The position numbers and the translations under genes are program-made. The notes under the pieces are model-generated. The model saw nothing but the letters and a program-made list of their open reading frames with translations, was not told the origin of the DNA and did no database searches. Below are positions 41,771-54,454 of a stretch of DNA of 64,000 nt, one piece after another. How positions within the stretch are numbered: position 1 is the stretch's first letter; each line of letters begins with the position of its first letter. Source of the stretch: Candidatus Woesebacteria bacterium (GTDB lineage Bacteria > Patescibacteriota > Microgenomatia > UBA8517); NCBI GenBank assembly GCA_013426185.1, contig CP058602.1:628549-692548 (forward strand). Reading direction: 5' to 3'.

Positions 41771-41789
41771 CGGTTTTATTTTACACTAA

Positions 41790-42473
41790 ATGCTTTTTGA
41801 TTTTTTGTTTCCTAAAAGGTGCGTTTCCTGTCAGAAAAAAGTGGGCTATATTTGCAAATCTTGTCTTCGTTTGGTTAATAAAGCTTCTCCTTTTTGCCCT
41901 GTTTGTCTTGAGCCTTCAATTGATGGAGTAACTCATTTTAAATGCCTTAAAAAACTCTCGCTTGACGGAATAGTAGCAATTTGGCTTTACCGTGGAGTTA
42001 TTAGAAAGGCGATTTTGGCTTTAAAATATAAATTTATTTCTGATTTGGCGCGGGATTTGGTTTCTCTTTCTCTTTTGAGTCTTAAAGATAATTATTCAAT
42101 TTCTTCTTTGAAAAATGTAATTTTGGTGCCGATTCCGCTTAATAAGAAAAGATCTAATTGGCGCGGTTTTAATCAGACGGAGTTTTTGGGGAGGATGATA
42201 GCCTCCTCTTTTGGCTGGAAATTTTCTTCCAATTTGCTTTTGAGGAAGAAATTCACCAAACCTCAAGCTGGCCTTGGCAAGAAAGAAAGAAGGAAGAATG
42301 TTAAGGATGCTTTTGCTATTAACCCGCAATTTGCCAAGATCAAAAATGACAATCTAGAGGTGGTTATTCTTGATGATGTCTTTACCACAGGTTCAACTCT
42401 TAAGGAAGCTTGCAAAGTCTTAAAAAGAAATGGGTTTAAGACGGTTTGGGGACTTGTCTTGGCAAAGTCTTAG
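41790..42473 (+). CDS. comFC: ComF-family protein (double zinc ribbon plus phosphoribosyltransferase domain)
   Basis: CVSCQKK…CKSC…CPVC Zn-ribbon pairs. PRTase motif VVILDDVFTTGSTL. Confidence 0.7.
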   Translation: MLFDFLFPKRCVSCQKKVGYICKSCLRLVNKASPFCPVCLEPSIDGVTHFKCLKKLSLDGIVAIWLYRGVIRKAILALKYKFISDLARDLVSLSLLSLKDNYSISSLKNVILVPIPLNKKRSNWRGFNQTEFLGRMIASSFGWKFSSNLLLRKKFTKPQAGLGKKERRKNVKDAFAINPQFAKIKNDNLEVVILDDVFTTGSTLKEACKVLKRNGFKTVWGLVLAKS

Positions 42474-42735: not shown

Positions 42736-43239
42736 CTAAATTTTTCTTGAGTCGTATGCCCAGTGTAAAAGCGCTTGCCTTTGTTTTCTTCGGCAATTTA
42801 AGTTGCCGGGCATACAATTTTTCTTAATTTGTGCGATATGCCTTTTCATAGCTTGCCATCTTCTGATTTGCCTTAAATCGTCTTCGTGTCTTCTGCCCAT
42901 AAAATAGCGGCAATACCATTGGAACCAGCCTCTTGGGTCGTCAGGATGAATCCAACCTTTTTTGCGCCAGACGGATAACGGCTGGCTTGCGTTTACGCCA
43001 AAAAAGTTTAGTTTTGGATCGTGCCTTTTAGGACATAATTTTGCTTTTAAAAACCAGTCTTTGGGAAATTCGTTCTTACAATCTGTCATATATTTTCCTC
43101 CAAAAACTCCAAGCTCAAGCATTTCTTTTGGAGAAAGTTCAGGCTTAAAATCAGGATGAAAGTTTTCTCCCATAGGCTCGGTTAAATAGTAAACGTAATT
43201 TTTTTGCATTTTGTCATTGACTACTATTTTTTTCTTCAT
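42736..43239 (-). CDS. Conserved-looking hypothetical protein (167 aa; Trp/Cys/His-rich)
   Basis: Long ORF with coding-like composition (…GWIHPDDPRGWFQWYCRYFMGRRHEDD…). Function unknown. Confidence 0.45.
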   Translation of the reverse strand: MKKKIVVNDKMQKNYVYYLTEPMGENFHPDFKPELSPKEMLELGVFGGKYMTDCKNEFPKDWFLKAKLCPKRHDPKLNFFGVNASQPLSVWRKKGWIHPDDPRGWFQWYCRYFMGRRHEDDLRQIRRWQAMKRHIAQIKKNCMPGNLNCRRKQRQALLHWAYDSRKI

Positions 43240-44627: not shown

Positions 44628-44741
44628 GGAATTTATTATCTGTTCTGGGGTTATTTGAACGGCTTAAAATTTAATTTAGAATCTTTGCGGTGTCTGTTCG
44701 AAAAAATTCGAACCGATTTCGCCCAAAACCGATAAAACTCG

Positions 44742-44787
44742 CGGGGCGGGCGGCATTCCCCCCCAGACCCCCCTTCCGCCCGCCCCG
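44742..44787. repeat. GC-rich perfect 12-bp-stem hairpin (cggggcgggcgg…ccgcccgccccg) with C-rich 22-nt loop
   Basis: Direct reading. The composition is very atypical for this AT-rich window. Confidence 0.6.
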
Positions 44788-44971
44788 TGGAAGGCGACCT
44801 TTTCGGATTGAAAAACTGCCAAAGAACCTGAAAAAATATCGGCTCGAACTTTATTTTGGCCAAAAGCGGGCTTTTTCTCATCTTTGCCTTGTAAAAATTT
44901 ACTTGCTTTTATTATATTTGTTAGTATAATAATGAAAGAAGAAAATATCAACAATTTTATGATATCAAAAT

Positions 44972-45184
44972 ATGGAAAATAATCAAGGCAATAAATTAGG
45001 AAAGAAAATCAAAAAGTTAAGAACTGATCTTGGTTTGTCTCAAGACGAGCTCGCCCGAAAAGCCGATATACCTTATACCACTTTAACCAAGATTGAAACA
45101 GGGGTTATTAAAAAGCCTTCTGTGTATGTGGTGGCGAAGATTGCAAAGGCGTTGAATACAAAATTGGATGATTTAATAAATTAA
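44972..45184 (+). CDS. XRE-family HTH transcriptional regulator (candidate R-M controller C-protein)
   Basis: HTH KKLRTDLGLSQDELARKADIPYTTLTKIETG. 70 aa. Immediately upstream of the endonuclease and methyltransferase genes. Confidence 0.65.
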   Translation: MENNQGNKLGKKIKKLRTDLGLSQDELARKADIPYTTLTKIETGVIKKPSVYVVAKIAKALNTKLDDLIN

Positions 45185-45196
45185 GGATAAAAAACT

Positions 45197-45979
45197 ATGA
45201 ACTATTGGCTAAAATTAAGTATTGAATACGCTAACCAAAGAAGTTATTTGGATGATTTATTTCAAGTATATCCAACTATACCCGAGGGTATCAGAGATAT
45301 AGATGAAAATATTTGGGAAGAAGTAGAACAAGCTTTTAAAAACAAAGACAATACTGGACTGTTAAAGAGCCTTCTTAAGTTCGACCTTTTCCCAATAAAA
45401 GATTCTTATGTAGCTTATCTAAAGAGGGATCCGTCTGCAATCGAAAGAAACCCAGCCACAGTAAACCGACTTTGCGGAAGACTTTATGAAATGGGTCTCG
45501 ACAATATTTTTAAGCGTTGTTCAGAACCTAAAGAAACGAACAGACAAATAGGCCCTTTATTTAGGCGATGGCTTAACAAAAAATCTTTAGGTATTCAACC
45601 CGTTAAATTAGAAGAATTTTTAAAAACAAAAGAAAATGCCATATTAGATGGAAGTGATGCGGAGATAAAAAGTTTTGCTCAAGAGCATTTAAATTACAAC
45701 AGAAACAAAGGGCTAGATTTTATTGCTAGATTTAATGGTAAATACATTATTGGTGAAGCCAAATTTTTAACAGATTTTGGTGGTCATCAAAATGCTCAAT
45801 TCAATGATGCAATAGAAACACTGAAGTTGAAAGGTGTCAAGGCTATTACTATAGCCATATTAGATGGAGTTTTATATATCAAGGGGAATAATAAAATGTA
45901 TCGTGAAATAACGACAACTTTCAAAGACTACAATATCATGAGCAGTTTGGTTTTAAGAGATTTTTTATACCAAGTTTAA
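45197..45979 (+). CDS. Putative type II restriction endonuclease (PD-(D/E)xK-like)
   Basis: LDFIARFNGKYIIGEAKF gives a D…ExK arrangement. Position between the C-protein and the methyltransferase. Confidence 0.4.
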   Translation: MNYWLKLSIEYANQRSYLDDLFQVYPTIPEGIRDIDENIWEEVEQAFKNKDNTGLLKSLLKFDLFPIKDSYVAYLKRDPSAIERNPATVNRLCGRLYEMGLDNIFKRCSEPKETNRQIGPLFRRWLNKKSLGIQPVKLEEFLKTKENAILDGSDAEIKSFAQEHLNYNRNKGLDFIARFNGKYIIGEAKFLTDFGGHQNAQFNDAIETLKLKGVKAITIAILDGVLYIKGNNKMYREITTTFKDYNIMSSLVLRDFLYQV

Positions 45980-46065
45980 TTTATTTAGGACTATGATACT
46001 GACTTATAAAAATAAAAAAAAAAGAAATAGATATAATTAATCACACCAAGAAAGCCAAACTTGTT

Positions 46066-47121
46066 TATGTTTCTGAACAAAAGGGATTCAGAAACAAGCT
46101 AATTCAGGGTAATAATCTTGAAGTATTAAAAACTCTTTTAGAAGATTACAACTTTAAAGGGAAAATAGATCTTGTTTACATAGATCCTCCATTTGCTACA
46201 AACGGAGATTTTAAGATAAGTGATGATAGAGCTAATACCGTGAGTAAAAGCTCCTCTGATGAGGTCGCATATAGCGATACCCTAACTGGTAGCGATTATC
46301 TGGAATTTTTAAGAGAGCGTTTGATCCTATTGAGAGAATTGATGTCTGAAAAAGCGTCTATATATCTTCATATTGATTATAAGATTGGGCACTATGTGAA
46401 GGTTATAATGGACGAAGTTTTTGGGGTTGAAAATTTCCGTAATGATATAACACGTATCAAATGTAATCCTAAAAATTTTCAAAGAAAGGCTTATGGCAAT
46501 ATAAAGGATTTAATACTTTTTTATTCTAAAACAAAAAACCCAACTTGGAATGATCCGAGAGTTCCTTTTACTGAAGAAGACATCCGAAGATTGTTTACAA
46601 AAGTTGATAAAGATGGAAGAAGATATACAACTGTACCATTACATGCTCCAGGTGAAACATTAAACGGTAAAACTGGACAAGAGTGGAGAGGAATAAGACC
46701 TCCAAAGGGAAGACATTGGAGGAGCGACCCCGAAGTTTTAGATGAGCTAGATAAGAAAGGTTTAATAGAATGGTCAGAGAGTGGAGTACCGAGAAAGAAG
46801 ATTTATGCTGATGAACAAAAGGGTAAAAAAATGCAGGATATTTGGGAATTTAAGGACCCTCAATATCCTTTGTATCCTACGGAAAAAAACTTAGATTTAT
46901 TAAAGACTATTATAAAGGCTTCTTCAAATGAAGGCGATCTTGTACTTGATTGTTTTTGTGGATCTGGAACAACATTAGTTGCCGCACAAGAATTAAATAG
47001 AAATTGGATTGGTATTGACCAATCAGAGCATGCAATAAAAGTAACAAAAAAAAGACTATCTAAAATACCAAGAGATTTATTCTCTGGTGATGTAGAATAT
47101 GAATTTTTAATTCAAAAATAG
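46066..47121 (+). CDS. DNA methyltransferase (N6-adenine/N4-cytosine, beta-class)
   Basis: Motif IV DPPF (IDLVYIDPPFATNGDF) precedes motif I FxGxG (VLDCFCGSGTTLVAA). Start moved upstream to the ATG at 46066 from the track's GTG at 46240. Confidence 0.8.
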   Translation, partial: YVSEQKGFRNKLIQGNNLEVLKTLLEDYNFKGKIDLVYIDPPFATNGDFKISDDRANTVSKSSSDEVAYSDTLTGSDYLEFLRERLILLRELMSEKASIYLHIDYKIGHYVKVIMDEVFGVENFRNDITRIKCNPKNFQRKAYGNIKDLILFYSKTKNPTWNDPRVPFTEEDIRRLFTKVDKDGRRYTTVPLHAPGETLNGKTGQEWRGIRPPKGRHWRSDPEVLDELDKKGLIEWSESGVPRKKIYADEQKGKKMQDIWEFKDPQYPLYPTEKNLDLLKTIIKASSNEGDLVLDCFCGSGTTLVAAQELNRNWIGIDQSEHAIKVTKKRLSKIPRDLFSGDVEYEFLIQK

Positions 47122-47125
47122 CCAG

Positions 47126-48877
47126 ATGAGAATTACAGAATTAACAATAAAAAATTACCGGAGTTTTGACCCAGCAGGACAGACAATAAAATTCCCCTCG
47201 GTTCATTGTGCTTTAGTTGGAAAAAATAATGCAGGTAAGAGCAATATCTTTAGTGCATTAAACCTAGTTTTAGGAGCTAAAAATCCTGCTTACATAAAAT
47301 TTGAGGAAGATGACTACTTCGATATAAATTTACCAATCGAAATAAAAGTTGTTATTTCTGACATAACAGAGGATGATAAAAATATTTTGTTTACACTTCC
47401 TAATTTAACAAGGCAACAAAAAGGTGCTTTAAATTCAAAAATATCCAATGGCGAAGCAGATATAACTTTTTTGTTGCGAAAAAACTATGAATATATTCCA
47501 CTAGATGAAGACGAAGAACAAGCAGGTGAATCTCAAGATACTTTTGAAATAAAACTTTGGGGATTCAATGTTTATAGAAAAAAAGAAGATATTCGAAAAT
47601 TTTTAATACGCACGTTGTTAGTTCCAGCTGTAAGAGATTACAAAAATGAACTTTCTGCCTCTAAATGGACCCAATACGGGCAATTAATGAAAAGTGTTTT
47701 AGAAGACTCCCCTAAATATGCAGAGATAAAATCTGATCTTCAAAATTTAAATGAGAAAATTCAAGAAATATTTAAGAGCGAGAAAGAGAAACTTTTAAAA
47801 AGCGCGCGTATTGTTTCTTATGTTGATGATATTTCCTTTCAGTTAACAAAGGAAAACCATCCTTCAGAATTATTAAGAAATCTTGAGATTTTTATTAAAG
47901 AAGGTGGTAAATTATTTAATATCGATTATGTTGGTACAGGCACTCAAAGTGCTATTATTATTGGTATCCTTGAACTAGCATTAAAAAATAAATCGACAAA
48001 AAATAGGGTATTTTGCATTGAAGAACCAGAAGCCTTCATCCACCCTCATGGAATTAGGTATTTAGGAAGTCTTATTAAGAATATTTCTAGTGAGCAGAAT
48101 ACACAAGTTATTATTTCAACTCACTCTCTATCACTTACTGCTAATTTCGAACCAAAGGAGATAATTAAGGTTGATAAGGAAAACGGAAAAACTGTAATTA
48201 GACAAGATCCCTCTTTTGATGTTGTTCCTTTTAGACGATTTATTCATCAGGATAATGCAGAATTGTTCTTTAGCGATAGAGTAATTTTGGTAGAAGGACC
48301 AACAGAAAAGCATCTTTTCGATAATTTAGACAAAATCACAAAACAAAATCCCGCAAATCCAGATAGTGAGGATTGTAATTTTGACAGGATAAATATCGGT
48401 ATAATTAGGATGGATTCTGTTGATAGTATTGTAAATTACATAAAGATACTTTCTGCTTTTGGTATTGAATATTGCGCAATTGTTGATAAAGATTTTGTTT
48501 TAGATCCATCAAAACAGAATAAACTTAAGGAGTTATGTAGAGAGATCGGAGTTAATTATCAAAACAATGACATACCCCAACTGATAAATAATTTAAAATC
48601 AAAAAATATTCTAGTTAATACAAAAGGAGAAATCGAAGATTTATTTCCTGACCAAGATATTGCAAATATTACTGGAAGAAATATATCAGATATACAGGGA
48701 ATAAAGAGTAAATATCCAAATAAGACAAGCAAAGCATTTAAAGAATTGTTTGGTACTGGTAAAGCAGAATACGCAATCCAGATTGCAGGCTATTATGTAC
48801 AAAATAATACCTCTCATCCTTTAGAGGATATTATTAGAAAACTTTACAAAAAGGATATTTCTAATATAAATTTATAA
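47126..48877 (+). CDS. OLD-family ATP-dependent endonuclease (N-terminal ABC-type ATPase plus C-terminal Toprim; GajA-like)
   Basis: Walker A ALVGKNNAGKSNIF. Walker B / H-loop VFCIEEPEAFIHPHG. Toprim-like ILVEGPTEKHLFDNL … AIVDKDF. Confidence 0.7.
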   Translation: MRITELTIKNYRSFDPAGQTIKFPSVHCALVGKNNAGKSNIFSALNLVLGAKNPAYIKFEEDDYFDINLPIEIKVVISDITEDDKNILFTLPNLTRQQKGALNSKISNGEADITFLLRKNYEYIPLDEDEEQAGESQDTFEIKLWGFNVYRKKEDIRKFLIRTLLVPAVRDYKNELSASKWTQYGQLMKSVLEDSPKYAEIKSDLQNLNEKIQEIFKSEKEKLLKSARIVSYVDDISFQLTKENHPSELLRNLEIFIKEGGKLFNIDYVGTGTQSAIIIGILELALKNKSTKNRVFCIEEPEAFIHPHGIRYLGSLIKNISSEQNTQVIISTHSLSLTANFEPKEIIKVDKENGKTVIRQDPSFDVVPFRRFIHQDNAELFFSDRVILVEGPTEKHLFDNLDKITKQNPANPDSEDCNFDRINIGIIRMDSVDSIVNYIKILSAFGIEYCAIVDKDFVLDPSKQNKLKELCREIGVNYQNNDIPQLINNLKSKNILVNTKGEIEDLFPDQDIANITGRNISDIQGIKSKYPNKTSKAFKELFGTGKAEYAIQIAGYYVQNNTSHPLEDIIRKLYKKDISNINL

Positions 48878-50334
48878 AAGAATTTGCCGCCAAAGAAAAA
48901 CTTGAAATCGTCGCCTCGCTTTGCGAGGCAAAAACTGCCAAAGAACCTGGCCGAACTGTGTTCGGCGAAATGTTAGATAGAATTGAAAAGGGCGCAGCCC
49001 AAGGAATTTTGGCTTGGCATCCTGATAGACTGGCAAGAAATTCCATTGATGGCGGAAGGATTATCTATCTGCTGGACACAGGAAAACTTAAGGATTTAAA
49101 ATTTCCTACTTTTTGGTTTGATAATACACCACAAGGCAAGTTTATGTTGAATATTGCCTTTGGGCAAAGCAAATATTACATAGATAATCTTTCAGAAAAC
49201 ATTAAACGAGGACACAGGGCAAAACTACGAAAAGGTATTTGGCCAAGCTTTGCCCCTCTTGGATATCTCAACAACCATAAGACAAAAGGGATAGATATTG
49301 ATCAAGAGAAAGCACCGCTTATCAGAAAAGCGTTTGAATTATACGCCACTGGAGAATATACGCTAAAAGCAATTGCAAAAATTTTAAAAGACGCAGGACT
49401 TAGAAGCTACAAGGGCAAGGTGCTTTCTGTTTCCTGTGTCCAGCGAATGCTTAAAAATACGTTTTACTATGGTGTTTTTAGGTTCAATGGCGAAATGTAT
49501 GATGGAAGCCACGAGCCAATTATTTCCAAGAAACTTTTTGATACTATTCAACAGGTAATGAATAACAGAGGCAAGAAAAAGCGAAAAAGAAAACATAACT
49601 TTGCTTTTTCTGGGCTTATGCGTTGCGGAAATTGCGGTTGCATGATTACTGCTGAAATTCAAAAGGGATATATTTATTATCGTTGCACCAAGAAAAAGCA
49701 AAGATGCAATGAAAAGTATTTGCGCGAAGAAAAACTTGTTGAACAGCTAAAAGCAATAATTCAAAAAGTTTCCTTGCCAGATGAATGGGCAGAGAAAATG
49801 TTGGAAGAAATTGAGAAAGAGAAGGAACAGGCCAAACAAGAAACAAAATCACTTGTTCAAAATCTATTAAAACAAAAAGTGGCAATTGAAAGGAAGATGG
49901 ACAGACTGCTTGATCTTTATATTGAAGGCAAGGGTATTGAACCGGAAGAATATCAAGCTAAAAAACAGAAACTTCTTAATGAAAAACTGAAAATTCAACA
50001 GAAGATTAAAGATTTTGAACAAACAGGAAATAATTGGCTCGAACCAATGAAAGAAATGATTTTAGCCAGTAGCCAAGCCAAAATTCTATCGTCGCAGAGC
50101 GACAATTCTCAAATTCGAGCATTTCTAAAAAATATCGGCTCGAACTTTATTTTAAAAGGTAAAAAATTCCAATTTGAAGGGAAAATCGGCTGGCGTGCCC
50201 TTTTAAATTCCCCCCAGAATACCAATTGGCGGAGGGTACAGGATTCGAACCTGTGCCCGCCTGTAAGGCGGAGCGGTTTTCGAGACCGCCGCTTTAGTCC
50301 ACTCAGCCAACCCTCCACTCTTGGCTCCTTTTAA
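48865..50334 (+). pseudogene. Large serine recombinase lacking the N-terminal catalytic-serine segment (likely inactivated integrase of the island); 3' end runs into tRNA-Ser
   Basis: Resolvase-domain remainder …GILAWHPDRLARN…, recombinase domain, Zn ribbon CGNCGCMITAEIQKGYIYYRC, and coiled coil. The reading frame opens only at 48865, so roughly 40 aa including the catalytic serine region are missing. The ORF reads through the tRNA gene. Confidence 0.5.
50227..50316 (-). tRNA. tRNA-Ser (anticodon CGA), with CCA encoded
   Basis: Manual fold: acceptor GGAGGGT/ACCCTCC, anticodon stem GCGGT/ACCGC, loop CUCGAAA, long variable arm CCGCC…GGCGG, T-arm ACAGG-TTCGAAT-CCTGT. Confidence 0.8.
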
Positions 50335-50338
50335 TTAG

Positions 50339-50411
50339 TGCACCTGGGAGGAATTGAACCTCCAACCTTTTGGTCCGCAACCAAACGTTCTATCCGTTGA
50401 ACTACAGGTGC
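50339..50411 (-). tRNA. tRNA, anticodon read as GCG (Arg) by manual folding
   Basis: Acceptor GCACCTG/CAGGTGC, D-arm GTTCAACGGATAGAAC, anticodon stem TTTGG/CCAAA, loop UUGCGGA, T-arm GGAGG-TTCAATT-CCTCC. Confidence 0.65.
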
Positions 50412-50466
50412 GAATGAAACAAGAACTACAAACTAGTTTTCCCGCCAGTTTACAATAATTCTTTTT

Positions 50467-50982
50467 TTATCTATTTTGCATTTTGGTCGAGAACCAGCCA
50501 GCCAGTTTTTCAAGTGAGGAAGGAGGAATAGGTTGTTTAACAACATAATTTTTCAAAACAGATTCTATTTTCTCTTTGTCTTTTTTCTCTGTCACAAGCT
50601 CCATTTTCCCCGGTATAAAGTTAGTTCCCAAAATAAGCTTGTTGTAATCTTTTTCTTCTTCTATCCAAAAACTAATAATATTTTCCCAGGGAATGATGTT
50701 GTCTTTTATTCTCACTCCAAAGTTGGTTATTTTGTACTCAACTTTCTCAGGTTCTACATTGTGCAAGATAAAATAAAGGAAAGACAAAGCTATTAAAAGT
50801 ACAACAGGCACCCACCCTTCCGCTATAAAAATAATAAGGCTGATAACTGCCAAAACCGCGCCTGAATTAAGATAAAATTCTTTGCTTTTCTTTTCAAAGG
50901 GCCTAAGGTAAGCTTGCCAAGAGAAAAACACTTGTTCTTGAACAAGCTTTGGTTCTTTTTTTTCTGGGACAGGCATTTTCAT
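50467..50982 (-). CDS. Hypothetical membrane protein (two TM plus C-terminal soluble domain)
   Basis: 171-aa ORF. Hydrophobic helices AVLAVISLIIFIAEGWVPVVLLIALSFLYFIL. Confidence 0.45.
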   Translation of the reverse strand: MKMPVPEKKEPKLVQEQVFFSWQAYLRPFEKKSKEFYLNSGAVLAVISLIIFIAEGWVPVVLLIALSFLYFILHNVEPEKVEYKITNFGVRIKDNIIPWENIISFWIEEEKDYNKLILGTNFIPGKMELVTEKKDKEKIESVLKNYVVKQPIPPSSLEKLAGWFSTKMQNR

Positions 50983-51011
50983 CTAACAAAATTATATCAG
51001 ATTTATCCAAA

Positions 51012-51040
51012 TTTACCTAAGGAGACTCTTCTGCTATAAT
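51012..51040 (+). promoter_or_regulatory. Candidate sigma70 promoter for tRNA-Ser(GCT)
   Basis: TATAAT at 51035..51040, 10 nt upstream of the tRNA 5' end. Weak -35-like tttacc 17 bp upstream. Confidence 0.3.
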
Positions 51041-51049
51041 TGCTTTATT

Positions 51050-51135
51050 GGAGGTGTCGCCTAGTGGTCGATGGCAGAGGTTTGCTAAACCTCGACCCCA
51101 AAAGGGTCACGTGGGTTCGAATCCCACCACCTCCG
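51050..51135 (+). tRNA. tRNA-Ser (anticodon GCT)
   Basis: Acceptor GGAGGTG/CACCTCC, anticodon stem GAGGT/ACCTC, loop UUGCUAA, long variable arm, T-arm GTGGG-TTCGAAT-CCCAC. Confidence 0.8.
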
Positions 51136-51139
51136 CTTT

Positions 51140-51571
51140 ATGAATAACAATCTGATGCTTGTTGGGGGAGCTGTTGTCTTTAAAAGGGCAAATAATGGCC
51201 GTGTGGATTGGTTCTTGGTTGAGGAAAATAGCAAGGGTTGGGAAATTCCCAAAGCTGTTGTGAGAAAAGGTGAATCGTCTGTCAGGGCGGTTTTGCGGAC
51301 AATGGGGGAGCAAGCTGGTATGAGTTGCCGAGTTTTAGAAGAGGTGGGTAGGATTGAGGATAATCTTGAGGTTAATGGTAAAAAGACTTCCCGAAGGATT
51401 ATTTATTATTTGGTCTTGGGTAGAACTGGTGGTGAGGCTTTGGGTTTTGACAGCTCTGCTTGGCTTAATCTTAATTCGGCTTTAAAAAGAGTGTCTTGGG
51501 AGAAAGAGAAAATGATTTTAAAAAAGGCTAAGCTTGAGTTTGAAAAGTGGCTTTCAAGACAAAAGAAATAG
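51140..51571 (+). CDS. NUDIX-like hydrolase (degenerate Nudix box)
   Basis: 143-aa ORF. Segment KGESSVRAVLRTMGEQAG partially fits the GX5EX7REUXEEXGU Nudix signature. Confidence 0.4.
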   Translation: MNNNLMLVGGAVVFKRANNGRVDWFLVEENSKGWEIPKAVVRKGESSVRAVLRTMGEQAGMSCRVLEEVGRIEDNLEVNGKKTSRRIIYYLVLGRTGGEALGFDSSAWLNLNSALKRVSWEKEKMILKKAKLEFEKWLSRQKK

Positions 51572-51580
51572 CTTTTAGTG

Positions 51581-51668
51581 GGGTGGGATCGCATAGTGGA
51601 CTAGTGCGCACGCTTGGAGAGCGTGTGTCGCCGCAAGGTGACCGAGGGTTCGAATCCCTCTCCCACCG
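51581..51668 (+). tRNA. tRNA-Ser (anticodon GGA)
   Basis: Acceptor GGTGGGA/TCCCACC, anticodon stem CACGC/GCGTG, loop UUGGAGA, long variable arm, T-arm GAGGG-TTCGAAT-CCCTC. Confidence 0.8.
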
Positions 51669-51686
51669 CTTAATTTCCCTTACCTT

Positions 51687-51806
51687 GGTGGGTTGGCCGA
51701 GTGGTTTATTTCGAACGAAGTGAGAAACAAGCTTTGTTTTTTAAGCGGAGCGAGAAAAACAAAGCTTATGGCGCAGGTCTTGTCCGCCATTGGCGGATCA
51801 AGTTTT
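51687..51806 (+). pseudogene. Partial/disrupted copy of tRNA-Ser(TGA): 5' part, then a 60-nt insert containing a 12-bp hairpin, then D/anticodon-stem remnant
   Basis: ggtgggttggccgagtggttta and …atggcgcaggtcttg… are identical to the intact gene at 51912. The insert carries aagctttgtttt / aaaacaaagctt inverted repeats. No T-arm follows. Confidence 0.5.
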
Positions 51807-51843
51807 AGGAGGGATTGATATCTGTTGTTTTGGCTTTTACATT

Positions 51844-51868
51844 GGTGGGTTGGCCGAGTGGTTTACTG
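51844..51868 (+). pseudogene. Second partial copy of the tRNA-Ser(TGA) 5' end (acceptor plus D-arm only)
   Basis: ggtgggttggccgagtggtttac matches the first 22 nt of the intact tRNA, followed by unrelated sequence. Confidence 0.5.
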
Positions 51869-51911
51869 CGAAGCAGCAAAACACGAGGCTAATCTGAATA
51901 GCTTTTTCTTT

Positions 51912-51995
51912 GGTGGGTTGGCCGAGTGGTTTATGGCGCAGGTCTTGAAAACCTGTGGGAGCAATCCCTCAGAGGTTCGAATCCTCTACCCACCG
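51912..51995 (+). tRNA. tRNA-Ser (anticodon TGA)
   Basis: Acceptor GGTGGGT/ACCCACC, anticodon stem CAGGT/ACCTG, loop CUUGAAA, long variable arm, T-arm AGAGG-TTCGAAT-CCTCT. Confidence 0.8.
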
Positions 51996-52005
51996 CCTCT
52001 CTCTT

Positions 52006-52077
52006 GCCCCCGTAGTTTAATGGATAAAACGAGGGCTTCCGGAGCCTTCGATGGAAGTTCAATTCTTCCCGGGGGCA
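52006..52077 (+). tRNA. tRNA-Arg (anticodon CCG)
   Basis: Acceptor GCCCCCG/CGGGGGC with discriminator A, anticodon stem AGGGC/GCCTT (one G-U pair), loop UUCCGGA, T-arm GGAAG-TTCAATT-CTTCC. Confidence 0.7.
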
Positions 52078-52094
52078 CAGTGAAGCTGGGAGGC

Positions 52095-52657
52095 TAGTCT
52101 TCGCCTATGGCAGAGTTGGTCAAAGCTAGTCGAAGCTAGTATTTTGTATTATGTATTATGCAGGGAATAAAGGTAGGAAGTAGAAAGTAGTAAGTAGAAA
52201 GCAACGGATTTCAGATATCGGCTATCGGACGTCGGCTATCGGATGTCGGACATCGGAGCCAGTCAAAAGCTAGTTAAAGTTGGTATCAAGCATCACGAAG
52301 CAGGTGTCGAGTATGGTAATAGGTAAAAGGCAAGGGGTAAAAGTTAAAAGAATTCGGATTTCAGCTATCAGCCGTCAGCTGCCGGAGTTGATTGCTATCT
52401 TAATTCCTTAAATCATAAATCAAAATTCTATAATCAAGGTTTTGAATTTTGACTTTTAAGTTTTGAGTTATATTTTTTGACTTTTAAGTTTTAAGTTTTA
52501 ATTTAATTTGTGATTTGAGAAATTGGATAATTGTAGAATTGTTTAGAATTTAGGATTTAGAAATTAGAATTTAATTTTTGTGATTTGTGATTTGTAATTT
52601 GTTTGTAGTTTGGAATTTGTGATTTGTATATTGTAATTTGTAATTTGTCTTACATCT
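52095..52657. repeat. Dispersed AT-rich repeat family, copy R3 (same orientation as R2), ending at the dnaG start codon
   Basis: Shares agtattttgtattatgtattatg…gtagaaagtagtaagtagaaagc and the …tagaatttaggatttagaaattagaattt…tttgtaatttg… tail with R1 (reverse complement) and R2. Contains the reverse complement of the tccgatg heptad tract. Confidence 0.65.
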
Positions 52658-54454
52658 ATGGATCAGGTAGAAGAGATTAAGCAAAAGACAGACATTGTTA
52701 ATATTATCTCAGAAAGGCTTGAACTTAAAAAAGCAGGCAGGAATTACAAGGCTTTATGCCCCTTTCATCAGGAGAAAACTCCTTCTTTTATGGTTTCACC
52801 CGAGCTTCAGATTTACAAGTGCTTTGGTTGTGGCGAATCAGGAGATGTCTTTTCTTTTCTTGAAAAATATGAGGGAATGAGTTTCTTTGAGACGCTTCAA
52901 TACCTGGCTGATAAATTGGGAATTAAACTTAAAAGGGTAAATCTGGGAAGAGAGGACAAAAGAGAGCGAATCTTGTCTTTAAATGAATTGGCAGCTAAGT
53001 TTTATAATTACGTTCTTTTGGAGCATAAACTGGGGAAAAAGGCCCTGTCTTATCTGACTGAGAAAAGAGGGCTTAAGCTTGAAACTGTTAAAAAGTTTAA
53101 TTTAGGTTTTTCTCCCAAGAATAGTCAGGCTTTGGTCAACTTTTTGATTAAAAAGAAAGGTTTTACAAAAGAGGAGTTAATCGAATCTGGAACTTTTTTC
53201 CCTCGTGCGGGCGCTTTGCAGGATCGTTTTTATGGCCGTGTGATTTTTCCTCTTTATGATCATCGAGGCAGAACCGTGGGCTTTGGGGGTAGAATTTTGC
53301 CACCTGAATTTGGTGGAGAAGAAAATAAAGATCAAGCTAAATATATAAATTCTCCTGAGACTTTGGTTTATAAAAAATCGCACACCTTGTTTGGCTTAAA
53401 TCTTGTTAAAGAGGAAATTAAAAGAGAAAAGGAAGTGGTGATAGTCGAAGGAGAACTAGATATGATTTCCTCTTATCAAGCAGGAGTTAGAAATATAGTG
53501 GCTGTTAAAGGTTCTGCTTTGACACAAGAGCAGGCCTCTTTGCTTTTAAGGTTTGCTGAAAAGTTTATCTTTGCCTATGACACAGATAACGCTGGAATTA
53601 ACGCTATTAAAAGGGGAGCCGTTGTTACCCAAAAGTTAGGAGCTCAAATAAAAGTGGCGCGTCTTGGGAGTTATAAAGACCCAGATGATATGGCAAGAGC
53701 TAATCCTGAAGGTTTGAAGAGAGTGGTTCAAGAAGCAGTTCCTGTTTGGGACTTTTTGATTGATTTGTCTTTTGAAAAAAATGACGCAAAAACTGGAGAG
53801 GGTAAAGCCAAGATTAGTCAAGAGCTAGTGCCTATTTTATCAAGTATCGAAGACAAGATTGTTCAGGCACATTATGTTGAAGTTTTGGCTGAAAGACTTT
53901 CGGTTCCTTCAACGGCTGTTTTTGAAGAGGTTTCAAAAAAGCAAGGCGAGGCTGTTTTGGAACAAAAAGTAGTTACAGAAAAATTTGCTCCTAAGAAAAG
54001 TAGACGTGAGCTTTTGGAAGAAAGATTATTGGCTCTTCTTTTTCAAAGTGATGTGGAAGGTATTTTAGATGAGTCATTAGATTTATTTTTGCAAAGTCGA
54101 GTTCATAAAAAGTTAGTGGAGGAGTTAAGGAAATTCCTTAGCGAGAGTAAAAAATTTGATCCTGCTTTGTTTTTAAAGGCTCTTCCTTCTGAAATTGCAG
54201 GTCATTTTTCAGAATTAATGCTTTATGAAGCTGGTTTTGATTTTGAGGATAAAGAGCGTTTAGAAAAAGAAATTGCTTCAATTAAGAAAGATCTTAAACA
54301 AGAGATGATTAAAGAAAAATTGATTGATATTCAAGAAAAGATGAAGCAAGCTGAGGCAAAGAGGGATGTTGAGGCTTTAAATTTGCTTCGTAAGGAATTT
54401 GCCCAAAAAACAAGTGAGCTTTCGGCTTTGAATAAAGAGAATGGCGTTGTATAA
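52658..54454 (+). CDS. dnaG: DNA primase
   Basis: CHC2 zinc finger (CPFHQEKTPSF…CFGCGESGD). Toprim region (VVIVEGELDMISS … FAYDTDNAG). Followed by rpoD. Confidence 0.85.
   Translation: MDQVEEIKQKTDIVNIISERLELKKAGRNYKALCPFHQEKTPSFMVSPELQIYKCFGCGESGDVFSFLEKYEGMSFFETLQYLADKLGIKLKRVNLGREDKRERILSLNELAAKFYNYVLLEHKLGKKALSYLTEKRGLKLETVKKFNLGFSPKNSQALVNFLIKKKGFTKEELIESGTFFPRAGALQDRFYGRVIFPLYDHRGRTVGFGGRILPPEFGGEENKDQAKYINSPETLVYKKSHTLFGLNLVKEEIKREKEVVIVEGELDMISSYQAGVRNIVAVKGSALTQEQASLLLRFAEKFIFAYDTDNAGINAIKRGAVVTQKLGAQIKVARLGSYKDPDDMARANPEGLKRVVQEAVPVWDFLIDLSFEKNDAKTGEGKAKISQELVPILSSIEDKIVQAHYVEVLAERLSVPSTAVFEEVSKKQGEAVLEQKVVTEKFAPKKSRRELLEERLLALLFQSDVEGILDESLDLFLQSRVHKKLVEELRKFLSESKKFDPALFLKALPSEIAGHFSELMLYEAGFDFEDKERLEKEIASIKKDLKQEMIKEKLIDIQEKMKQAEAKRDVEALNLLRKEFAQKTSELSALNKENGVV

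What the first reader, a model, noticed from the sequence alone, without database searches (positions are those of the whole stretch)
50227..52077. All four tRNA-Ser isoacceptors (CGA, GCT, GGA, TGA) clustered with two partial tRNA-Ser(TGA) duplicates
Serine tRNAs are favoured integration targets. Two truncated copies of the 5' part of tRNA-Ser(TGA) lie just upstream of the intact gene. The first, at 51687, continues to the anticodon stem after a 60-nt insert that forms a 12-bp hairpin. This suggests scars of earlier integration and excision events, or a decayed intron-containing or permuted tRNA. The spurious ORF 51825..52097 is explained by these repeats.
Basis: seen in the sequence. Interest (0 to 1): 0.5.

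Follow-up and report, generated by a model that had tools for sequence, protein, structure and literature searches.

The report
Strain-variable stack of dead tRNA-Ser 5' fragments
Just upstream of the only intact tRNA-Ser(UGA) gene of this Woesebacteria (CPR) genome lies a short array of broken 5' copies of that gene carrying small hairpin inserts; sibling strains differ in the number and order of copies, so it is most likely fast-evolving junk rather than a phage or island scar or an intron-containing tRNA.

Summary
Four tRNA-Ser isoacceptors and two tRNA-Arg lie at 50227-52078. The first 22 nt of tRNA-Ser(TGA) occur three times exactly: 51687, 51844 and in the intact gene at 51912.

The four-Ser cluster is conserved synteny in Woesebacteria, so it is not special.

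The partial copies are not intron-containing, split or permuted tRNAs. No integrase or island lies between them and the intact gene in this window or in 15 sibling-strain contigs.

They form modular units, each starting with the 5' fragment (P):
- alpha: P, a 56-nt hairpin insert, the tRNA up to the anticodon loop, then 61 nt.
- beta': P plus 46 nt.

Sibling strains carry alpha+beta', alpha only, beta only, alpha+beta or beta+alpha. These variants sit on backgrounds 0-3 SNPs per 1.2 kb apart. In some strains beta holds a 97-nt hairpin element that always sits after TTAC and is dispersed elsewhere in their genomes.

Best reading: decayed partial duplications hit by hairpin mini-elements and reshuffled by recombination between the repeats.

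Open lead: four other CPR contigs carry a tRNA-Ser 5' fragment followed by a two-hairpin motif with compensatory changes, absent from Rfam. The window's beta' only weakly resembles it.

The parts
50227..50316 (-). tRNA-Ser(CGA); its 3' end is the right boundary of a strain-variable island
   Evidence: ARAGORN; Rfam 59.1 bits; strain comparison
50338..50411 (-). tRNA-Arg(GCG)
51050..51136 (+). tRNA-Ser(GCT). It is preceded by the only good promoter-like site of the cluster (TTTACC-17-TATAAT, 51012-51040), which probably marks the start of an operon GCT-NUDIX-GGA-array-TGA-Arg(CCG). The operon is an inference.
51140..51571 (+). NUDIX hydrolase gene lying between two tRNA-Ser genes
   Evidence: Pfam NUDIX 1.6e-08; the identical protein is found in 15 contigs
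51582..51669 (+). tRNA-Ser(GGA)
51687..51708 (+). P copy 1: the first 22 nt of tRNA-Ser(TGA) (acceptor 5' strand, D-stem 5' strand, part of the D-loop). It lies 17 nt after tRNA-Ser(GGA), where relatives L002 and L004 have their intact tRNA-Ser(TGA).
51710..51765 (+). insA: a 56-nt insert in the D-loop of copy 1, flanked by TTAT (51706-51709) and TTAT (51766-51769). It has a small hairpin TTCGAACGAA and a 13-14 bp hairpin. Only this one copy is known.
51766..51782 (+). Continuation of copy 1: D-stem 3' strand, anticodon stem 5' strand and anticodon loop up to CTTG, identical to 51931-51947. The copy ends here.
   Evidence: (family D9)
51783..51843 (+). Remainder of unit alpha: hairpin TCCGCC-ATT-GGCGGA, then 46 nt holding a promoter-like TTGATA-17-TACATT that ends directly at copy 2. 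A 3-nt (TTG) indel is polymorphic between strains.
51844..51865 (+). P copy 2: start of unit beta'
51866..51911 (+). S: the 46-nt remainder of unit beta' (hairpin CTGC-GAA-GCAG, AAAACACGAGG, T-run). In strains L058, L060, L110, L119 and L174 a 97-nt TTAC-targeting hairpin element is inserted at the P/S junction.
51912..51997 (+). Intact tRNA-Ser(TGA). Over the stretches aligned it is identical in every sibling-strain contig that reaches it.
52006..52078 (+). tRNA-Arg(CCG)

Best explanation
The two partial copies are dead 5' fragments of the tRNA-Ser(UGA) gene. They sit in the spacer of a tRNA operon (Ser-GCT, NUDIX, Ser-GGA, array, Ser-UGA, Arg-CCG).

They form two modular units, each beginning with the same 22-nt gene start (P), which seems to be preceded by about 10 loosely similar nucleotides (by eye; not tested):
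- Unit alpha is a 5' half of the gene, ending in the anticodon loop, whose D-loop was split by a 56-nt hairpin insert, followed by 61 nt.
- Unit beta' is the gene start up to the same D-loop position, followed by 46 nt.

How it arose and changes:
- Inferred: the units arose by local partial duplication of the gene's 5' region, and each dead copy was then hit by a small hairpin-forming insertion at the D-loop TTTA(T/C).
- Shown: sibling strains carry different numbers and orders of units.
- Inferred: the array gains, loses and reorders units by recombination or slippage between the P repeats.
- Shown in sibling strains: a mobile 97-nt element that always sits after TTAC lands in the beta' unit.

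The intact downstream gene supplies the tRNA. The fragments most likely have no function of their own.
For: 1. The fragments are incomplete. No T-arm or 3' half exists, ARAGORN with introns finds nothing, and the Rfam tRNA model gives no hit there at E<=10.
2. Modular polymorphism in the same species: alpha+beta' (window, L052, L053, L056, L057, L059; L061 up to its end; L080 and L131 with point changes), alpha only (L054), beta only (L058, L174; L060 up to its end), alpha+beta (L110), beta+alpha (L119).
3. Turnover is faster than point mutation. The alpha-only strain differs by 0 SNPs, and a beta-only strain by 2 SNPs, per 1.2 kb of flank from alpha+beta' strains.
4. Relaxed constraint. L080 and L131 carry a substitution in each P copy and swapped upstream flanks, while the intact tRNA does not vary.
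5. The insert in beta is a dispersed element. Copies lie at L053 2296-2397 and 5988-6090 and at L174 446-556, all after TTAC. The window holds the matching empty site at 41779-41790.
6. insA sits at the same D-loop position and is flanked by TTAT/TTAT.
7. Species-specific: 51 other Woesebacteria/Microgenomates loci have no such fragments.
8. The same gene is rearrangement-prone in the closest relative, L015. There a damaged chimeric copy (30.2 bits against 59.6 for the intact one) and the intact copy flank 6.9 kb.
Against: - All 16 same-species contigs that reach the array keep at least one unit. If recombination between P copies is frequent, a zero-unit allele should arise.
- Four other CPR contigs have a tRNA-Ser 5' fragment ending at the same D-loop place, followed by two hairpins with compensatory changes and a conserved motif. 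That pattern looks selected or actively mobile rather than junk, and S resembles its 3' part (5 of 1000 shuffles).
- How alpha and beta' first arose is not shown.
- The alpha-only, alpha+beta and beta+alpha variants each rest on a single contig, so an assembly error cannot be excluded for them.
Confidence: 0.6

Rival explanations
1. Target-duplicating hairpin element. A small single-strand (IS200/IS605-like) element inserts after a fixed tetranucleotide in the D-loop of tRNA-Ser genes. By using the D-loop site as a surrogate right end, it carries a copy of the gene's leader and 5' segment. Each insertion then regenerates the gene and leaves the old 5' fragment upstream. The array would be a record of successive insertions.
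For: - Every unit boundary and both inserts lie at the same D-loop site, GGTTTA(T/C).
- For both insA and the 97-nt element, the flanking tetranucleotide equals the element's last four bases (TTAT/TTAT, TTAC/TTAC).
- The 97-nt element is demonstrably mobile in sibling strains.
- Four other CPR contigs show a tRNA-Ser 5' fragment (18-28 nt), two hairpins, a conserved motif and the intact cognate gene. One of them involves tRNA-Ser(GCT), with its own 5' fragment.
- In three of those four, the flank bases GTGG pair with an internal CCAC.
Against: - No Y1 transposase (TnpA) turned up in the few proteins scanned against Pfam; most of the fetched DNA was not screened.
- insA, S and the four-species motif were never seen away from a tRNA-Ser gene in 1.64 Mb.
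- Any tandem duplication gives the same junction geometry, so the anatomy does not discriminate.
- The GTGG/CCAC pairing fails in L123.
- Recombination between P copies alone explains the strain variants.
Confidence: 0.2
2. Classical scars. The fragments are displaced target pieces left by integrase-borne or homing-endonuclease-borne elements that carried the 5' half of the tRNA gene. The interiors of those elements were later deleted.
For: - Unit alpha ends in the anticodon loop, a usual crossover place for tRNA-targeting integrases (own knowledge of K. P. Williams's 2002 survey of integrase sublocations in tRNA genes; background in PMC4383910 and PMC9897764).
- In L147/L161 a dead tRNA-Lys 5' half, also with a palindrome in its D-loop, is separated from the intact gene by a GIY-YIG endonuclease ORF.
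- L135 has two diverged tRNA-Ser 5' halves cut at the same loop position.
- An island with a serine recombinase sits at the neighbouring tRNA-Ser(CGA).
Against: - No element, integrase or endonuclease lies between fragment and gene in any of 16 same-species contigs.
- The fragments are 5' parts, and unit beta' ends in the D-loop.
- Similarity seems to extend upstream of the gene (by eye; not tested).
- The 22-mer is absent from viral contigs.
- The model needs repeated near-complete deletions that each leave 46-61 nt.
Confidence: 0.1
3. Functional leader. The fragments and hairpins are part of the tRNA precursor and modulate folding, RNase P processing or read-through into tRNA-Ser(UGA)/tRNA-Arg(CCG). 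Unit number would then act as a contingency switch.
For: - At least one unit is present in all 16 same-species contigs that reach the array.
- In the predicted minimum-energy fold of the precursor, the first fragment pairs with the 3' acceptor strand of the intact tRNA (z = -3.6).
- The hairpin motif in four other species has 14 of 20 pairs with compensatory changes.
- The array changes between near-identical strains.
Against: - Content and order are not conserved.
- An element insertion and point changes in the fragments are tolerated.
- The covariance model of the four-species motif does not hit the window at E<=10.
- 51 related loci lack any such leader.
- No expression data are available.
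Confidence: 0.09
4. Copy 1 is an intron-containing, split or permuted tRNA, or the repeats are an assembly artefact.
For: Only ARAGORN at relaxed stringency (-ps80, introns up to 200 nt) calls a 'tRNA-Arg(tcg) with a 26-nt intron' at about 51683-51796.
Against: - Default ARAGORN with introns finds nothing there.
- Rfam gives no tRNA or intron hit at E<=10.
- There is no second 3' half in the window.
- The structure recurs in at least 15 independent assemblies.
Confidence: 0.01

Closest known systems
Displaced tRNA-gene fragments at the borders of integrated islands and prophages (Islander-type; PMC4383910, PMC9897764)
   Same: A partial copy of a tRNA gene lies in direct orientation near the intact gene. 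One breakpoint (unit alpha) lies in the anticodon loop.
   Different: - These are 5' fragments upstream of the gene, not 3' fragments downstream.
- Nothing but 46-160 nt lies between the copies, with no integrase.
- There are several units whose number and order vary between strains.
- Similarity seems to extend upstream of the gene start (by eye; not tested).
Miniature derivatives of IS200/IS605 insertion sequences (palindrome-associated transposable elements; IS608 inserts 3' of TTAC: PMC3201880, PMC5027513)
   Same: This applies to the 97-nt element of sibling strains and perhaps to insA. There are no terminal inverted repeats and there are two subterminal hairpins. Insertion is always directly after one tetranucleotide. 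An empty site is available for comparison.
   Different: - No TnpA was found in the few proteins scanned.
- The element's right end repeats the target tetranucleotide, so a 4-bp target duplication cannot be excluded.
- The element is very short.
- insA is known from one copy only.
Tandem duplication followed by random loss, which leaves tRNA pseudogene remnants in animal mitochondrial genomes (own knowledge)
   Same: Local duplication of a tRNA gene region is followed by decay of the redundant copy, leaving recognisable fragments in spacers.
   Different: Here only the 5' part is repeated. The copies carry hairpin insertions, and the array is still polymorphic within a species.
Endonuclease-borne elements that carry a replacement piece of the gene they invade
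   Same: The dead fragment of the original gene is left next to a regenerated gene.
   Different: No endonuclease gene is present at this locus in any strain.
CRISPR arrays
   Same: Direct repeats of 22-32 nt separated by unrelated spacers, with strain-variable content.
   Different: The repeat is the start of a tRNA gene. There are only 2-3 repeats, the 'spacers' are 46-144 nt with internal hairpins, and no cas genes were seen among the translated ORFs of 38-64 kb.

Membership tests
Integrase att-site scar (displaced tRNA fragment of an island or prophage) | An element with an integrase lies between the fragment and the regenerated gene, in this or a sibling genome | tested here: not met
   At most about 330 nt and no ORF with a family match lie between them in the window and 15 sibling contigs.
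Integrase att-site scar (displaced tRNA fragment of an island or prophage) | The displaced fragment is the 3' part of the gene, downstream of the element | tested here: not met
   Both fragments are 5' parts lying upstream. No extra 3' part exists in the window.
Integrase att-site scar (displaced tRNA fragment of an island or prophage) | The identity block ends at a crossover site in the anticodon loop, T-loop or 3' end | tested here: inconclusive
   Copy 1 ends in the anticodon loop (CTTG, 51782). Copy 2 ends in the D-loop (51865), which is not a known sublocation.
Intron-containing, split or permuted tRNA | A matching 3' half with T-arm and acceptor 3' strand | tested here: not met
Intron-containing, split or permuted tRNA | A recognisable intron (group I or bulge-helix-bulge) at the interruption | tested here: not met
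   No Rfam intron family hits 51560-52700 at E<=10. The insert is in the D-loop and is 56 nt long.
IS200/IS605-type miniature element (97-nt element of sibling strains; candidate for insA) | Insertion directly 3' of one fixed tetranucleotide | tested here: met
   TTAC lies on the left of all four insertion sites. The empty site is window 41779-41790. insA sits after TTAT.
IS200/IS605-type miniature element (97-nt element of sibling strains; candidate for insA) | Subterminal hairpins and no terminal inverted repeats | tested here: met
   Alignment of five copies. The ends TACATCTAA and GGATTTTTTAC are not inverted repeats of each other.
IS200/IS605-type miniature element (97-nt element of sibling strains; candidate for insA) | No target-site duplication | tested here: inconclusive
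   The right end also reads TTAC (or TTAT for insA). This is equally compatible with a 4-bp duplication.
IS200/IS605-type miniature element (97-nt element of sibling strains; candidate for insA) | A cognate Y1 transposase (TnpA) in the same genome | not tested
   Only part of the genome is available, and only a few proteins were scanned. The ORFs next to a copy in L053 gave no transposase family.
IS200/IS605-type miniature element (97-nt element of sibling strains; candidate for insA) | Several dispersed copies | tested here: met
   This holds for the 97-nt element only: L053 has two, L174 has one plus the one in the array, and L056 has a partial copy. It does not hold for insA or S. The window itself has no copy.
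Two-hairpin motif after tRNA-Ser 5' fragments (L108, L123, L154, L173) | A match to covariance model R1 (two hairpins, closing stem, GGAAnCCACGArGG) | tested here: not met
   No hit in the window at E<=10. There is only local similarity of S and insA to the L154 copy (5 and 3 of 1000 shuffles).

The most novel reading that the evidence does not exclude
CPR bacteria harbour a so far undescribed small structured element: two hairpins, a 4-bp closing stem that uses the tRNA's own D-loop bases, and a GGAAnCCACGArGG motif. It resides specifically at the D-loop break of a duplicated tRNA-Ser 5' segment.

It could be a single-strand mobile element that regenerates its target gene on insertion, or a processing or regulatory leader of tRNA-Ser precursors. 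On this reading the window's alpha and beta' units are degenerate members of the family, and the strain-variable array records its activity.
Probability: 0.2. Interest if true: 0.7.

Novelty: new variant of a known kind. Interest (0 to 1): 0.42.

Why it matters
- For annotation: these fragments and the ORF over them should be masked, and the locus should not be read as an island border.
- For biology: the intact tRNA does not vary between strains while the spacer upstream of it is one of the fastest-changing places in a reduced CPR genome. It changes by repeat recombination and by a tiny TTAC-targeting hairpin element.
- For assembly: contigs of this species often break here or in the heptamer repeats downstream.
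- If the cross-species hairpin motif proves to be a mobile element or a leader specific to tRNA-Ser, it would be a new class. It could be tested by a covariance-model scan of CPR genomes.

Tried and rejected
- ARAGORN with introns and Rfam at E<=10: no tRNA, intron or known RNA family matches the fragments, the 97-nt element or the cross-species motif.
- Viral contig scans:
  - The 22-mer is absent.
  - The 18-mer hits almost only complete phage tRNAs. The exception of interest is L203, where a tRNA-Ser(TGA)-like 5' portion (through the anticodon arm, no T-arm) runs into non-tRNA DNA at a contig end.
  - The 14-nt motif gave only chance hits with no model match.
  - The core of the 97-nt element is absent.
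- Homology of the 61-nt tail of unit alpha with the upstream flank of tRNA-Ser(TGA) in the closest relative L015: not significant (551 of 2000 shuffles). I therefore dropped the idea that it is the native promoter region.
- Covariance model R1 over 1.64 Mb of loci: it finds only its four training sequences.
- Pfam on ORFs next to a dispersed copy of the 97-nt element: no transposase.
- The DnaG look-up for more strains gave contigs that break about 110-170 nt upstream of dnaG and never reach the array.
- Literature searches found no description of 5' tRNA fragment arrays in CPR.
- A CRISPR-like reading was rejected: the repeat is part of a tRNA gene and no cas genes were seen.

Full report
**1. 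The observation**

ARAGORN finds six tRNA genes between 50227 and 52078, and Rfam agrees:
- Ser(CGA) and Arg(GCG) on the minus strand.
- Ser(GCT), Ser(GGA), Ser(TGA) and Arg(CCG) on the plus strand.

These are the four serine isoacceptors a bacterium needs.

The first 22 nt of tRNA-Ser(TGA), GGTGGGTTGGCCGAGTGGTTTA, occur exactly three times, at 51687, 51844 and 51912. None is expected in 100 shuffles.

After a 56-nt insert, copy 1 resumes with 17 nt identical to the gene (TTATGGCGCAGGTCTTG, 51766-51782). It stops inside the anticodon loop. Copy 2 stops in the D-loop. The insert folds into a 13-14 bp hairpin.

ORF 51825-52097 has no family match and lies over tRNA genes, so it is spurious.

**2. 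Whose genome, and is the cluster special?**

The DnaG protein next to the cluster finds Candidatus Woesebacteria and other Microgenomates. The best match is 65% identity, to the complete genome CP055308.1 (locus L015).

In most of the 24 related loci scanned, several tRNA-Ser genes, tRNA-Arg genes and often tmRNA lie within 10 kb upstream of dnaG, in shuffled order. L015 has the window's exact order. The four-isoacceptor cluster is thus inherited synteny, not an oddity of this genome.

In L002 and L004, tRNA-Ser(TGA) follows tRNA-Ser(GGA) after 17 and 8 nt. In the window, copy 1 sits 17 nt after tRNA-Ser(GGA), at that same place.

**3. Not a tRNA with an intron, not split or permuted**

- ARAGORN with introns at default stringency calls nothing at copy 1 or copy 2. 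Only at relaxed stringency does it offer an implausible 'tRNA-Arg(tcg) with intron'.
- The Rfam tRNA model gives no hit there even at E<=10, and no intron family appears.
- No second copy of the 3' end of this or any other tRNA exists in the window.

**4. Sibling strains show a modular, fast-changing array**

Looking up the exact NUDIX protein (51140-51571) returned ten contigs of the same species from different samples. A metagenome scan for the 22-mer added five more. Aligning them resolves the region into units. Each unit begins with the gene start (P), preceded by about 10 loosely similar nucleotides; I judged that upstream similarity by eye and did not test it.

The units:
- alpha = P + insA (56 nt) + tRNA up to CTTG + hairpin TCCGCCATTGGCGGA + 46 nt.
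- beta' = P + S (46 nt).
- beta = beta' with a 97-nt insert at the P/S junction.

The variants:

| Variant | Contigs |
|---|---|
| alpha beta' tRNA | window, L052, L053, L056, L057, L059; L061 as far as its end; L080 and L131 with point changes |
| alpha tRNA | L054 |
| beta tRNA | L058, L174; L060 as far as its end |
| alpha beta tRNA | L110 |
| beta alpha tRNA | L119 |

Over 1.2 kb of flank, the alpha-only strain differs by 0 SNPs, and a beta-only strain by 2 SNPs, from alpha+beta' strains. The array therefore changes faster than point mutations accumulate.

L080 and L131 carry one substitution in each P fragment and have exchanged upstream flanks, whereas the intact gene is identical over the stretches aligned. 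That is what relaxed constraint plus gene conversion between repeats would give.

No contig has more than about 330 nt between the first fragment and the gene, and none has an integrase there. All 16 same-species contigs that reach the array (the window and 15 others; L055 ends before it) keep at least one unit.

**5. The inserts**

The 97-nt insert of unit beta is a dispersed element. Further copies lie at L053 2296-2397 and 5988-6090 and at L174 446-556, and a cut copy lies at the start of L056.

- All copies sit directly after TTAC and end in TTAC.
- They have two hairpins and no terminal inverted repeats.
- The window contains the empty site of one of them (...TTTTAC|ACTAAATG..., 41779-41790).

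This is the behaviour of miniature IS200/IS605-type elements. IS608 inserts 3' of TTAC (PMC3201880, PMC5027513). However, a 4-bp target duplication cannot be excluded, and no transposase turned up in the few proteins scanned. The window has no copy of this element.

It is known from this locus only. It shares a short stretch with the 97-nt element (18 of 500 shuffles) and with S (2 of 500). That similarity is suggestive, not proven.

**6. Best explanation**

The fragments are decayed partial duplications of the gene's 5' region.
- Each was broken at the D-loop by a small hairpin insertion.
- Units are lost, gained and reordered by recombination or slippage between the 22-32 nt repeats.
- The alpha+beta and beta+alpha forms are what one misaligned exchange between an alpha-only and a beta-only chromosome would give.

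The variants, their rapid turnover and the mobility of the 97-nt element are shown. The original duplications and the recombination mechanism are inferred.

The closest relative supports a rearrangement-prone site. L015 has a 208-bp direct repeat (the end of a 167-aa gene plus spacer plus tRNA-Ser(TGA) up to the T-loop) flanking 6.9 kb. That 6.9 kb holds what look, from my reading of the ORF translations and not from a family search, like polyamine-synthesis genes and broken IS3-family transposase remnants.
- The left copy is a chimera whose 3' end matches tRNA-Ser(GGA) in 21 of 22 nt.
- It scores 30.2 bits against 59.6 for the right copy.

**7. Why not an island scar?**

Displaced tRNA fragments normally mark island or prophage ends (PMC4383910, PMC9897764). 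They are 3' parts because the element carries the 3' part of the gene (own knowledge of K. P. Williams's 2002 survey). Here:
- The fragments are 5' parts.
- Similarity seems to run upstream of the gene (by eye; not tested).
- One breakpoint is in the D-loop.
- No element is present in any strain.
- No viral contig holds the 22-mer.

The anticodon-loop end of unit alpha is the one feature that fits.

A true insertion at a serine tRNA does exist 1.4 kb away. Window 44691-50226 lies exactly at the 3' end of tRNA-Ser(CGA) and holds:
- an HTH regulator,
- a Tsp45I-type restriction enzyme,
- a methylase,
- an OLD-type nuclease,
- a 5'-truncated large serine recombinase.

It is missing in L054, L056 and L119. 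L052 holds copper-resistance genes, and L053 and L055 another restriction system, in the same variable region.

**8. An open lead from other species**

Searching all fetched loci for repeated tRNA starts showed that 5' fragments upstream of the intact gene recur in other CPR contigs.

Four of them share one anatomy: L108, L154 and L173 for tRNA-Ser(TGA), and L123 for tRNA-Ser(GCT). In order, they carry:
- 18-23 nt of the cognate gene start (28 nt in L108, which includes 10 nt upstream), ending at GAGTGG or GGTTTA in the D-loop;
- two hairpins;
- GGAAnCCACGArGG;
- yACAGTTTTTT;
- 0-45 nt;
- the intact gene.

The consensus fold has 20 pairs, 14 of them with compensatory changes. A 4-bp stem between the fragment's GTGG and the motif's CCAC holds in three of the four.

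A covariance model built from them finds nothing else in 1.64 Mb and does not hit the window. Rfam has no such family.

S aligns to the 3' part of the L154 copy (CAGCAAAACACGAGGC...TAGCTTTTT against CAGGAAACCACGAGGCACAGTTTTTT; 5 of 1000 shuffles, uncorrected for 16 comparisons). The window's beta' may therefore be a degenerate relative, but membership is not established.

Other cases:
- L147/L161: a dead tRNA-Lys 5' half with a 20-nt palindrome in its D-loop, a GIY-YIG endonuclease ORF and the intact gene.
- L135: two diverged tRNA-Ser 5' halves cut after CTTG or CTTA.
- L160: a 5' two-thirds copy.

These cases keep two rivals alive: a hairpin element that regenerates its target on insertion, and a functional leader. 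I rate them at about 0.2 and 0.1.

**9. Verdict**

The cluster is ordinary for the lineage. The fragments are most likely non-functional, rapidly reshuffled remnants with hairpin mini-element insertions. This is a new variant of the known theme 'tRNA gene fragments', not an island scar and not an unusual tRNA.

Interest is moderate. It rests mainly on the strain-level dynamics and on the unexplained cross-species hairpin motif.

Noticed in passing
window 44691-50226: A 5.5-kb island is inserted exactly at the 3' end of tRNA-Ser(CGA). It holds an HTH regulator (44972-45184), a Tsp45I-type restriction enzyme (45197-45979), an N6/N4 methylase (46240-47121), an OLD-type ATPase/TOPRIM nuclease (47126-48877) and a large serine recombinase. 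The recombinase lacks its first ~50 residues (48958-50334), and its frame runs into the tRNA. Sibling strains L054, L056 and L119 join 44690 directly to 50226, with a short repeat T(T)G(G)CGG at the junctions. L052 has copper-resistance genes, and L053 and L055 another restriction system, in the same variable region.
   Followed up: partly
window 44741-44860: The left end of that island holds a GC-rich palindrome (about 44741-44790). It also holds a 50-nt piece (44811-44860) that fuses the 5' region (matching 48930-48949) and the 3' region (matching 50127-50153) of the recombinase gene. This looks like an internally deleted relic of a second copy.
   Followed up: no
window 52119-52648: Between tRNA-Arg(CCG) and dnaG lie successive blocks of different 7-nt tandem repeats: GTATTAT x3, GTAGAAA x4, CGGATAT x7.6, GTTTTAA x9, TTTAGAA x4.6 and TTTGTAA x10.7. 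The region differs between strains (L058, L119), and contigs break there (L182, L183). Its function is unknown.
   Followed up: partly
L053 2296-2397 and 5988-6090; L174 446-556; L056 1-36; empty site at window 41779-41790: A dispersed 97-nt element with two hairpins, a conserved core GAATAGTTTAGATGGAGCCAAGAAA and a T-run. It always sits after TTAC and ends in TTAC. It has no Rfam match, no viral match and no transposase in the few neighbouring ORFs scanned. It is absent from the window.
   Followed up: partly
L108 2064-2157; L173 1112-1222; L154 12-122; L123 245-357: A tRNA-Ser 5' fragment is followed by two covarying hairpins, GGAAnCCACGArGG and a T-run, directly upstream of the intact cognate tRNA-Ser in four other CPR contigs. 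It is not in Rfam.
   Followed up: partly
L147 1583-2001 (minus strand) and L161 4019-4437: A dead 5' half of tRNA-Lys(TTT) with a perfect 20-nt palindrome in its D-loop, then a GIY-YIG endonuclease ORF (Pfam 1.1e-12), then the intact tRNA-Lys.
   Followed up: partly
L144, L148, L162 and L175 (about 100 nt upstream of several tRNA-Ser and tRNA-Arg(GCG) genes): A second, different leader type: promoter, hairpin, GAGAGGAGG, about 70 nt, then (T)CCGACGA directly before the tRNA start. It is repeated before two or three tRNA genes of one contig. It has no Rfam match.
   Followed up: no
L015 2585-2800 and 9583-9807: In the closest relative, a 208-bp direct repeat (gene end, spacer and most of tRNA-Ser(TGA)) flanks 6.9 kb. 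That stretch holds what look, from reading the ORF translations only, like polyamine-synthesis genes and broken IS3-family transposase remnants. The left tRNA copy is a chimera with the 3' end of tRNA-Ser(GGA) (30.2 bits). The homologue of window ORF 42736-43239 lies between Ser(GGA) and Ser(TGA) there.
   Followed up: partly
L135 801-998; L160 143-370; L156 1421-1500: Further partial 5' copies of tRNA-Ser genes in other CPR contigs. L135 has two diverged halves, each cut in the anticodon loop and followed by TCCCG. L160 has a 5' two-thirds copy. L156 has a 5' part of tRNA-Ser(TGA) displaced to just upstream of tRNA-Ser(CGA).
   Followed up: no
window 51670-51997: In the predicted minimum-energy fold of the precursor, the first fragment rather than the true 5' end pairs with the 3' acceptor strand of tRNA-Ser(TGA) (z = -3.6 against shuffles).
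   Followed up: no
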